NCBI GenBank assembly: GCA_009914755.4 | Contig: CP068257.2 | Coordinates: 5,952,001 to 6,016,000 of the forward strand | Reading direction: 5' to 3' | Length of the DNA stretch: 64,000 nucleotides | Source of the DNA: the human T2T-CHM13v2.0 reference genome, Homo sapiens | Part shown: positions 17,009-17,334 of the stretch, piece by piece | Position numbering within the stretch: position 1 is the first letter of the stretch | Layout of the letters: every line of letters begins with the position of its first letter | Translations under genes and position numbers: made by a program | Notes under the pieces: model-generated | Database searches by the model: none | What the model was told of the DNA's origin: nothing | Seen by the model: only the letters and a program-made list of their open reading frames with translations

Positions 17009-17020
17009 CCATTCCTTTTC
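17009..17020. repeat. Target-site duplication (3' side of the Alu, adjoining its poly(A) tail)
   Basis: 'ccattccttttc' lies immediately before the poly-T run, and an identical 12-mer lies immediately after the Alu at 17,323-17,334. Confidence 0.8.
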
Positions 17021-17322
17021 TTTTTTTTTTTTTTTTTTTTTGAGACGGAGTCTTGCTCTGTCGCCCAGGCTGGAGTGCAGTGGCGCGATCTCGGCTCACT
17101 GCAAGCTCTGCCTCCCGCGTTCATGCCATTCTCCTGCCTCAGCCTCCCGAGTAGCTGGGACTACAGGCGCCTGCTACCACGCCCGGCTAATTTTTTGTAT
17201 TTTTAGTAGAAACGGGGTTTCACCGTGTTAGCCAGGATGGTCTCGATCTCCTGACCTCGTGATCCGCCCGCCTCGGCCTCCCAAAGTGCTGGGATTACAG
17301 GCGTGAGCCACCGCGCCTGGCC
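17021..17322 (-). mobile_element. Full-length AluY SINE with ~21-nt poly(A) tail (seen as a poly-T run on +)
   Basis: The + strand reads T(21) followed by GAGACGGAGTCTTGCTCTGTCGCCCAGGCTGGAGTGCAGTGGCGCGATCTCGGCTCACTGCAAGC...GGGATTACAGGCGTGAGCCACCGCGCCTGGCC. That is the reverse complement of a dimeric Alu, left and right monomers both present. Diagnostic AluY positions are present (GCGCGATCTCGGCTCAC). The few differences from consensus are mostly at CpG sites. It is flanked by a 12-bp TSD. Confidence 0.95.
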
Positions 17323-17334
17323 CCATTCCTTTTC
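17323..17334. repeat. Target-site duplication (5' side of the Alu)
   Basis: 'ccattccttttc' follows directly after the ...cgcgcctggcc Alu 5' end. It is identical to 17,009-17,020. Confidence 0.8.

What the first reader, a model, noticed from the sequence alone, without database searches (positions are those of the whole stretch)
17009..17334. Young AluY inserted into one copy of a satellite higher-order repeat, with the empty site kept in the neighbouring paralogous copy
A near-consensus full-length AluY sits on the - strand with a ~21-nt poly(A) tail. Its differences from consensus are mostly CpG transitions. It is flanked by a perfect 12-bp TSD, 'ccattccttttc'. The homologous position in the adjacent HOR copy, 19,963-19,974, has a single uninterrupted 'ccattccttttc' followed by homologous sequence. 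That is a textbook pre-insertion site. The insertion therefore happened after the ~2.7-kb HOR unit duplicated. It gives a rare unique anchor inside an otherwise unmappable satellite array, and it dates the HOR duplication relative to AluY activity. The T-rich variant 'CTTTTC' inside the satellite offers an L1-endonuclease-like TT|AAAA-type target.
Basis: partly seen in the sequence, partly recalled or inferred. Interest (0 to 1): 0.55.

Follow-up and report, generated by a model that had tools for sequence, protein, structure and literature searches.

The report
Ordinary AluY insertion in pentamer satellite
A single full-length AluY retrotransposon landed in one of two neighbouring ~2.8-kb duplicated blocks of a CATTC-type satellite, and the other block keeps the empty target site; this is a clean but ordinary example of a well-known event.

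Summary
A full-length Alu lies on the minus strand: 281-nt body at 17042-17322 and a pure 21-A tail at 17021-17041. A perfect 12-bp direct repeat, CCATTCCTTTTC, flanks it at 17009-17020 and 17323-17334. Copy B has that 12-mer once, at 19963-19974, directly followed by clearly homologous sequence.

The element differs from a printed AluY consensus at 8 of 281 positions (2.85%). Five differences are CpG transitions. One, G148A, is the AluYc1 diagnostic.

It is overstated in four details:
- **No higher-order repeat.** There are only two tandem copies, 90-93% identical near the site and about 90% further left, in a satellite whose background self-identity is 75-82%.
- **No clean Alu-sized gap.** A separate 150-bp satellite indel lies about 50 bp from the site, so a raw alignment does not show one.
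- **Not recent.** The divergence suggests roughly 6-11 Myr, with a wide error.
- **Not unmappable locally.** 99% of 51-mers are unique within the window.

AluY copies inside and beside HSat3-type arrays are already catalogued in the T2T assemblies. Interest is low.

The parts
17323..17334 (-). Target-site duplication, the copy at the Alu 5' end (reads GAAAAGGAATGG in Alu sense)
   Evidence: identical to 17009-17020; a 12-nt abutting repeat never arises from the pentamer periodicity in this window.
17042..17322 (-). Full-length Alu body (281 nt) of the AluY lineage, carrying the AluYc1 diagnostic G148A. Left monomer is about 17207-17322 and right monomer about 17042-17187, with the A-rich linker between them.
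   Evidence: two Metazoa_SRP partial hits and mir-1268 on the minus strand; 8 of 281 differences from the AluY consensus of PMC8097388, against 16 from a Ya8 sequence of PMC10988039. PMC4607524: G148A defines Yc1.
17021..17041 (-). Pure 21-nt poly(A) tail (T21 on the + strand)
17009..17020 (-). Target-site duplication, the copy at the Alu 3' end. The inferred first-strand nick on the + strand is 5'-CTTTTC/AT-3', read from the empty site.
   Evidence: The nick position is inferred from the repeat boundaries and the empty site at 19963-19976.
19963..19974 (.). Empty (pre-insertion) site in paralogous copy B: one CCATTCCTTTTC directly followed by the homologous right flank
   Evidence: constant offset of 2640 from 17323 to about 17651; the right flank has 7.2% mismatches over 516 aligned nt.
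14862..17900 (+). Copy A of a two-copy tandem duplication of satellite. It contains the Alu and a 315-bp extra satellite stretch within 16012-16442.
   Evidence: collinear k-mer chain and BLAST hits to 17902-20530; the extra stretch is satellite.
17902..20530 (+). Copy B of the tandem duplication (empty site). The unit is about 2.7-2.8 kb.
   Evidence: With the Alu removed, identity to A is 92.7% over 1107 aligned nt around the site. Further left, mismatches are 9.9% by global alignment, and local BLAST hits are 83-86% identical.
19772..19921 (+). 150 bp (30 pentamers) present in B and absent from A, about 50 bp left of the insertion site. It is an independent satellite indel, most likely a deletion in A.
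   Evidence: it has no close duplicate elsewhere in the window (87% or less).

Best explanation
A CATTC-pentamer satellite block of about 2.8 kb was duplicated in tandem (copies A and B). Later, one AluY-lineage RNA, probably AluYc1-type, was inserted into copy A by L1 ORF2p target-primed reverse transcription. The + strand was nicked at a T-rich variant pentamer (5'-CCATTCCTTTTC/ATTTC-3'). The T-rich 3' end primed on the Alu poly(A) tail. A staggered second nick 12 nt away produced the 12-bp target-site duplication. Since then the Alu has gained about 7-8 substitutions, mostly by CpG decay. The two satellite copies have gained about 7% mismatches and several indels in multiples of 5 bp, including a 150-bp one beside the site. 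This block has been neither re-amplified nor homogenised since the insertion.

Shown directly: the element's identity, tail, target-site duplication, empty site, single copy number and two-copy duplication. Inferred: the L1 machinery, the nick position and the ages.
For: - **Anatomy.** Full-length 281-nt body, a pure A21 tail and a perfect 12-bp direct repeat.
- **Family.** Two 7SL-like monomers on the minus strand. There are 8 of 281 differences from the printed AluY consensus (PMC8097388; the same left-arm form appears in PMC3514201). Five are CpG transitions. G148A is the Yc1 diagnostic (PMC4607524).
- **Empty site.** The single 12-mer at 19963-19974 abuts a specific right flank. The offset steps from 2954 to 2640, a change of 314 = 302 + 12.
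- **Not a periodicity artefact.** No position among 63,626 has a pre-existing abutting 12-nt repeat.
- **Order of events.** The flanks differ by 6.45% at non-CpG sites, or 3.2% per lineage. An Alu as old as the duplication would be expected to carry about 7.5 non-CpG changes. It carries 3, or 2 if G148A was inherited. P(<=3) = 0.06 and P(<=2) = 0.02.
- **Target.** The Alu-less window has 240 TTTT positions and 117 TTTT followed by a purine on the + strand, against only 6 AAAA. Usable L1-endonuclease-like sites therefore lie almost entirely on the + strand, which predicts the minus-strand orientation seen here.
- **Context.** TEs overlapping HSat1-3 were counted genome-wide and are enriched in diverged arrays (10.1101/2021.07.12.452052). 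HSat3 arrays associated with AluY sequences are described in 10.1101/2022.12.01.518724.
Against: - The nick site has C at position -1 and T at +2, so it is only a degenerate match to the L1 endonuclease consensus.
- The left flank directly next to the site is generic (CATTC)n. Specific left-flank homology resumes only about 50 bp away in A and about 200 bp away in B, because of the 150-bp indel.
- The clock comparison that orders duplication before insertion is only marginally significant on its own.
- No formal RepeatMasker/Dfam call was possible.
- No orthologous or allelic sequence could be retrieved.
Confidence: 0.92

Rival explanations
1. The Alu inserted before the ~2.8-kb duplication, so both copies once carried it. 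Copy B later lost it precisely, by recombination between the two 12-bp target-site duplications or by gene conversion from an empty paralogue.
For: Copy B shows exactly one repeat copy, which is also what a repeat-mediated precise deletion would leave. The satellite block has clearly undergone many indels.
Against: Precise Alu loss is very rare (established knowledge). The Alu carries 2-3 non-CpG changes where about 7.5 would be expected if it were as old as the duplication (P = 0.02-0.06). 21 CpGs survive in the element, against 25 in the consensus.
Confidence: 0.03
2. The insertion is very recent (human-specific and possibly polymorphic). The 8 differences were mostly inherited from a diverged source element, or reflect an elevated mutation rate in methylated heterochromatin.
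For: The A21 tail is pure and the target-site duplication is perfect. 5 of 8 differences are at hypermutable CpGs, and one further difference is a known subfamily diagnostic (PMC4607524).
Against: Divergence of 2.5-2.85% is about 2.5-3 SD above the 0.8 +/- 0.7% reported for validated polymorphic Alus (PMC4607524). Two non-CpG private changes (C112T, C205G) remain unexplained. The Yc1-type source already existed in the human-chimpanzee ancestor (own knowledge, Chimpanzee Sequencing Consortium 2005).
Confidence: 0.07
3. It is not a retrotransposition event. The Alu was brought in by non-homologous repair or recombination, or by mis-assembly, and the flanking 12-mers are a chance satellite repeat.
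For: Direct repeats are abundant in pentameric satellite: 1.4% of positions have an abutting repeat of 12 nt or more.
Against: Those chance repeats are all multiples of 5 nt, apart from a single 14-mer, and none is 12 nt. The element is exactly full length with the A-tail abutting the repeat. The paralogue has the 12-mer once at the homologous point. The indel is exactly 302 + 12.
Confidence: 0.01

Closest known systems
AluY / AluYc1 SINE insertions mobilised by L1 ORF2p (target-primed reverse transcription)
   Same: Dimeric 7SL-derived 281-nt body, 97.2% identical to the AluY consensus. It carries the Yc1 diagnostic G148A, a 3' poly(A) tail, a 12-bp target-site duplication and a T-rich target.
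   Different: Nothing essential differs. The nick site 5'-CTTTTC/AT-3' is a degenerate version of TTTT/AA. Subfamily assignment rests on one diagnostic position, without a Dfam run.
TE insertions within HSat2/HSat3-type (CATTC)n satellites, as catalogued in T2T-CHM13 and T2T-Y (10.1101/2021.07.12.452052; 10.1101/2022.12.01.518724)
   Same: An Alu embedded in a CATTC-derived satellite, within a diverged, non-homogenised part of the array. That is where TEs are reported to accumulate.
   Different: The T2T-Y paper stresses Alu fragments intermingled with HSat3 blocks. Here the Alu is a single, intact, classically inserted copy that is not part of any repeating unit. The HSat3 subfamily and chromosome could not be assigned.
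HSat1B (DYZ2) composite satellite with an AluY-derived subunit
   Same: An AluY-lineage sequence inside a satellite array.
   Different: In HSat1B the Alu fragment is about 20% diverged and amplified as part of every ~2.5-kb unit. Here the Alu is present once, is 2.85% diverged and is absent from the sister copy.
Alpha-satellite-style higher-order repeats, or the 'nested tandem repeats' of HSat2/3
   Same: A kilobase-scale repeat unit built from a short monomer.
   Different: Only two units are present. Identity is about 90-93% by global alignment, and local BLAST hits further left are 83-86%. No array-wide period appears, and neighbouring local duplications have unrelated periods of 1.25, 3.1, 6.3 and 7.7 kb.

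Membership tests
Alu SINE (AluY lineage) | Dimer of two 7SL Alu-domain-like monomers joined by an A-rich linker, about 280 nt | tested here: met
   two Metazoa_SRP partial matches on the minus strand (17207-17321 and 17040-17187, E about 1e-12) plus mir-1268; 281 nt, with a gap-free alignment to the AluY consensus.
Alu SINE (AluY lineage) | Sequence closest to the AluY consensus rather than to Ya/Yb or S subfamilies | tested here: inconclusive
   8 differences from the AluY consensus printed in PMC8097388, against 16 from a Ya8 copy (PMC10988039). From my own recollection, the Yb8 7-bp duplication is absent and the right arm has Y-type rather than S-type bases. No Dfam/RepeatMasker library was available, so the full subfamily comparison was not run.
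AluYc1 (sensu Roy-Engel 2001) | Single diagnostic G-to-A at position 148 relative to AluY | tested here: met
   G148A is present. The definition is quoted in PMC4607524. One site in one element cannot separate inheritance from a private mutation.
L1-mediated retrotransposition (TPRT) insertion | 3' poly(A) tail abutting a target-site duplication of about 7-20 bp, with one repeat copy at the empty site | tested here: met
   A21 tail, a 12-bp perfect repeat, and the 12-mer present once at 19963-19974; not explained by satellite periodicity.
L1-mediated retrotransposition (TPRT) insertion | First-strand nick at the L1 endonuclease consensus 5'-TTTT/AA-3' | tested here: inconclusive
   The inferred nick is 5'-CTTTTC/AT-3'. 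It is T-rich followed by A, but has C at -1 and T at +2, so the match is degenerate.
HSat3 / HSat2 (CATTC-derived human satellites) | Array derived from the pentamer CATTC/GGAAT | tested here: met
   TRF reports period 5 over 1-63997; exact CATTC covers 37% of the window, all on one strand.
HSat3 / HSat2 (CATTC-derived human satellites) | Classical satellite III 10-mer A(T/C)TCGGGTTG, or the HSat2 23/26-bp CATTCGATTCCATTCGATGAT-type units. Subfamily-specific 24-mers (Altemose 2014) are a further criterion. | tested here: not met
   neither motif occurs on either strand. Both motifs are recalled from memory. The 24-mer subfamily classifier is not available here, so I describe the array only as CATTC-derived and HSat3-like, with subfamily unknown.
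Higher-order repeat array | Many tandem units of one fixed period, with inter-unit identity far above inter-monomer identity | tested here: not met
   only two units (A and B). Identity is 89-93% near the site. Further left, local BLAST hits are 83-86% identical and global alignment gives 9.9% mismatches. All other hits are 82% or less, and no dominant k-mer offset spans the window.

The most novel reading that the evidence does not exclude
The Alu may be a datable, single-copy time-stamp. It would show that this part of a CATTC satellite array has escaped amplification and homogenisation for several million years, possibly since before the human-chimpanzee split. If it is orthologous in other apes, or polymorphic among humans through array-level gain or loss, it would give a calibrated measure of turnover and mutation rate inside HSat3-type heterochromatin.
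Probability: 0.15. Interest if true: 0.3.

Novelty: already known. Interest (0 to 1): 0.1.

Why it matters
Its value is practical and small.
- **Landmark.** The two Alu-satellite junctions are unique landmarks for read mapping or PCR inside a satellite block.
- **Relative dating.** The filled and empty paralogue pair orders the events: the local 2.8-kb duplication came first, then the Alu, with no re-amplification since.
- **Consistency with published work.** This fits the published picture that TEs persist in diverged, non-homogenised parts of satellite arrays.
- **No new kind.** It reveals no new kind of element or mechanism. RepeatMasker tracks of complete assemblies would already annotate it.

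Tried and rejected
- **Rfam at gathering thresholds.** The whole window gave nothing, as expected for an Alu. The E-value scan was needed.
- **My remembered AluY consensus was wrong.** I recalled CCCGGCTAAAACGG, which is the Ya-lineage form. It inflated the count to 10 differences. Printed consensuses corrected this to 8.
MAFFT smeared copy B's extra 150 bp across the Alu, so no clean gap appeared. I replaced it with exact k-mer offsets and an Alu-removed global alignment.
- **Third copy or array-wide period.** None was found, so I rejected the HOR description.
- **The 315-bp length difference at 16012-16442 against 19121-19236.** It matches Alu plus repeat in size, so I checked it as a possible second TE event. 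It is plain satellite and a coincidence.
- **Searches for the locus or its paralogues as human contamination.** All returned 0 hits: metagenome contigs, genome contigs and viral contigs. Chromosome, species and polymorphism therefore could not be addressed.
- **Classical satellite III and HSat2 motifs.** Both are absent.

Full report
**What is in the sequence**

The window is a one-stranded pentameric satellite. TRF reports period 5 (ATTCC) across 1-63997. Exact CATTC covers 37% of the bases, and GAATG occurs only 9 times. G makes up only 5.9% of the bases.

Within it, 17021-17322 is the only long non-satellite stretch. It is the only G-rich segment longer than about 110 nt, and the only long stretch where the 5-nt autocorrelation collapses.

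Read on the minus strand, the stretch is a 281-nt Alu body (17322 down to 17042) followed by a pure A21 tail (17041 down to 17021). CCATTCCTTTTC abuts both ends, at 17009-17020 and 17323-17334.

**Is it an Alu, and which one**

Rfam at gathering thresholds finds nothing, as expected for an Alu. The E-value scan of 16900-17450 gives two minus-strand partial Metazoa_SRP matches, at 17207-17321 and 17040-17187 (E about 1e-12). It also gives mir-1268, an Alu-derived family. That is the signature of a dimeric 7SL-derived element.

I first compared the element with an AluY consensus from memory and counted 10 differences. Two of them (CCTGGCTAACACGG against CCCGGCTAAAACGG) looked suspicious. A full-text search for both strings settled it:
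- The printed AluY consensus (PMC8097388; also the AluY 'starter' in PMC3514201) has the form found here.
- My remembered form belongs to the Ya lineage (a Ya8 insertion in PMC10988039).

Against the printed AluY consensus the element has 8 of 281 substitutions and no indels (2.85%):
- Five are CpG transitions (positions 5, 151, 199, 214, 269). All are G>A in Alu sense.
- Two are non-CpG transitions (C112T, G148A).
- One is a transversion (C205G).

It differs at 16 positions from the Ya8 copy. G148A is exactly the change that defines AluYc1 in the sense of Roy-Engel et al., as quoted in PMC4607524. The best description is therefore 'AluY lineage, probably Yc1-type'. One diagnostic site in one element cannot prove inheritance. 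No Dfam or RepeatMasker run was possible.

**Is the direct repeat a real target-site duplication**

In a pentameric satellite, flanking repeats are cheap, so I measured the background. In the Alu-less window, 874 of 63,626 positions (1.4%) have an abutting direct repeat of 12 nt or more. All but one of these (a 14-mer) are 15, 20, 25 or 30 nt long. None is 12 nt. The 12-mer itself occurs 6 times in 64 kb. Only the copy at 19963 shares its right flank with the Alu locus.

**The paralogous empty site**

Exact 16-mers shared between the two regions form one collinear chain from A 14862 to about 17830 onto B 17902 to about 20510. Along it the offset changes as follows:

| Region in copy A | Offset to copy B |
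|---|---|
| Up to about 16012 | about 3040-3110 |
| 16442-16800 | 2794 |
| 16925-16952 | about 2780-2804 |
| Left repeat copy, 17004-17020 | 2954 |
| 17323 to about 17651 | 2640 |

The step at the Alu is 2954 - 2640 = 314 = 302 + 12, exactly one Alu with its tail plus one repeat copy.

With the Alu and one repeat copy removed, A (16430-17850) and B (19224-20530) align at 92.7% identity (1026 of 1107 aligned positions). Several gaps are multiples of 5 nt.

B carries 150 extra satellite bases (19772-19921) about 50 bp left of the site, and MAFFT spreads them across the Alu. That 150-bp indel lies outside the target-site duplication. It has no close duplicate elsewhere in the window (87% or less), so it is an independent event, most simply a deletion in A.

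The offset step of 315 bp between 16012 and 16442 matches the Alu in size only by coincidence. The extra sequence there is plain satellite.

**Is this a higher-order repeat**

No. Strict BLAST of the left flank, right flank and far-left segment finds only copy B above background. Identity is 91%, 89% and 83-86% respectively, and everything else is 82% or less.

K-mer offset spectra show no window-wide period. The peaks come from separate local duplications with unrelated periods:
- about 1.25 kb at 39.5-41.9 kb
- about 3.1 kb
- about 6.3 kb
- about 7.7 kb

The structure is therefore one old two-copy tandem duplication inside a diverged array. The centromere-map paper uses 'nested tandem repeats' for kilobase HSat2/3 units and notes that TEs are depleted from homogeneous arrays and enriched in diverged ones (10.1101/2021.07.12.452052). 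This locus fits that picture.

The claim that the array is 'otherwise unmappable' is not borne out locally. 93% of 31-mers and 99% of 51-mers are unique within the window. Genome-wide uniqueness is untested.

**Mechanism and order of events**

The anatomy is that of L1 ORF2p-mediated target-primed reverse transcription: a full-length element, an A-tail abutting the repeat, a 12-bp duplication and an empty site with one copy. The mechanism is inferred from established knowledge of Alu mobilisation.

The repeat boundaries place the first-strand nick on the window's + strand at 5'-CCATTCCTTTTC/ATTTC-3'. That is a T-rich tract followed by A, with C at -1 and T at +2, so it is a degenerate version of TTTT/AA.

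The Alu-less window has 240 TTTT positions and 117 TTTT followed by a purine on the + strand, against only 6 AAAA. Endonuclease-like sites therefore lie almost only on the + strand, which predicts the minus-strand Alu orientation seen here.

The flanks of A and B differ by 6.45% at non-CpG sites, or about 3.2% per lineage. An Alu as old as the duplication should carry about 7.5 non-CpG changes. It carries 3, or 2 if G148A was inherited. P = 0.06 and 0.02 respectively. Combined with the rarity of precise Alu loss, this supports insertion after duplication.

**Age**

I used the commonly applied 0.15%/Myr for non-CpG sites (own knowledge) and a 6-10-fold faster CpG rate (quoted in PMC4607524).
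- **Non-CpG sites.** 2-3 changes in 231 sites give about 6-9 Myr.
- **CpG sites.** 5 changes in 50 CpG bases give about 7-11 Myr.

The Poisson error for one element is wide, roughly 2-25 Myr.

Validated polymorphic human Alus average 0.8% divergence with SD 0.7% (PMC4607524). This copy is 'young' only relative to most Alus. It is more likely a fixed insertion from around or before the human-chimpanzee split than a recent polymorphism.

**Comparison with what is known**

AluY sequences within or beside HSat3 arrays, and TE counts per megabase in HSat1-3, are already described for T2T-CHM13 and T2T-Y. The locus is unlike HSat1B, where an Alu fragment is part of every repeat unit.

Neither the classical satellite III 10-mer nor HSat2-type units occur in the window. 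I therefore call the array only 'CATTC-derived, HSat3-like' and leave the subfamily open.

**Limits**

Searches of metagenome, prokaryotic-genome and viral collections for the junction, the A-specific flank and a flank shared by A and B all returned nothing. These searches looked for the locus as human contamination. I therefore could not establish the species, the chromosome, orthology or polymorphism. That the window is human, or at least catarrhine, is inferred from the AluY and the satellite type.

**Verdict**

The core interpretation is supported: a post-duplication AluY retrotransposition with a preserved empty site. The 'HOR', 'clean indel', 'young' and 'unmappable' qualifiers are overstated. 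It is a tidy textbook example of an already known kind of event. Interest is low.

Noticed in passing
window 1-26,300 and 62,250-64,000 versus 26,300-62,250: There are two distinct flavours of the CATTC satellite on the same strand. One is G-poor (2-3.5% G) and CACTC-rich with few TCGA sites. The other has 7-9% G, almost no CACTC and many TCGA/ATTCGAGT units. The Alu lies in the G-poor flavour. The window probably crosses boundaries between two satellite subfamilies.
   Followed up: partly
window 39478-41927; 6706-7740 vs 13031-14074; 1662-2064 vs 9366-9848; 4935-5326 vs 8028-8444: Other isolated local duplications have unrelated spacings of about 1.25, 6.3, 7.7 and 3.1 kb. The array looks like a patchwork of separate old duplications rather than one periodic repeat.
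   Followed up: partly
window 40459-40735; 6108-6233; 20991-21206; 60875-61256: Short tandem duplications lie inside the satellite: a 98-bp unit x2.9 (TRF), and two-copy repeats at spacings of 80, 145 and 235 bp.
   Followed up: no
window 16012-16442 vs 19121-19236: Copy A has 315 more bases than copy B here, almost exactly the size of Alu plus repeat (314). The extra DNA is ordinary satellite, so this is a coincidence that could mislead a length-based check.
   Followed up: yes
window 43040-43100: This is the only other T-run of 8 or more in the window (T9 at 43055). Next to it is a short stretch containing GAATG, the opposite-polarity pentamer, which occurs only 9 times in 64 kb. It may be a micro-inversion or a decayed insertion remnant.
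   Followed up: no
window 17042-17322 (Alu positions 5, 151, 199, 214, 269): All five CpG decays in the Alu are G>A in Alu sense, which is C>T on the C-rich + strand of the satellite. With n = 5 this is not significant (two-sided 1/16), but the strand bias is worth recording.
   Followed up: partly
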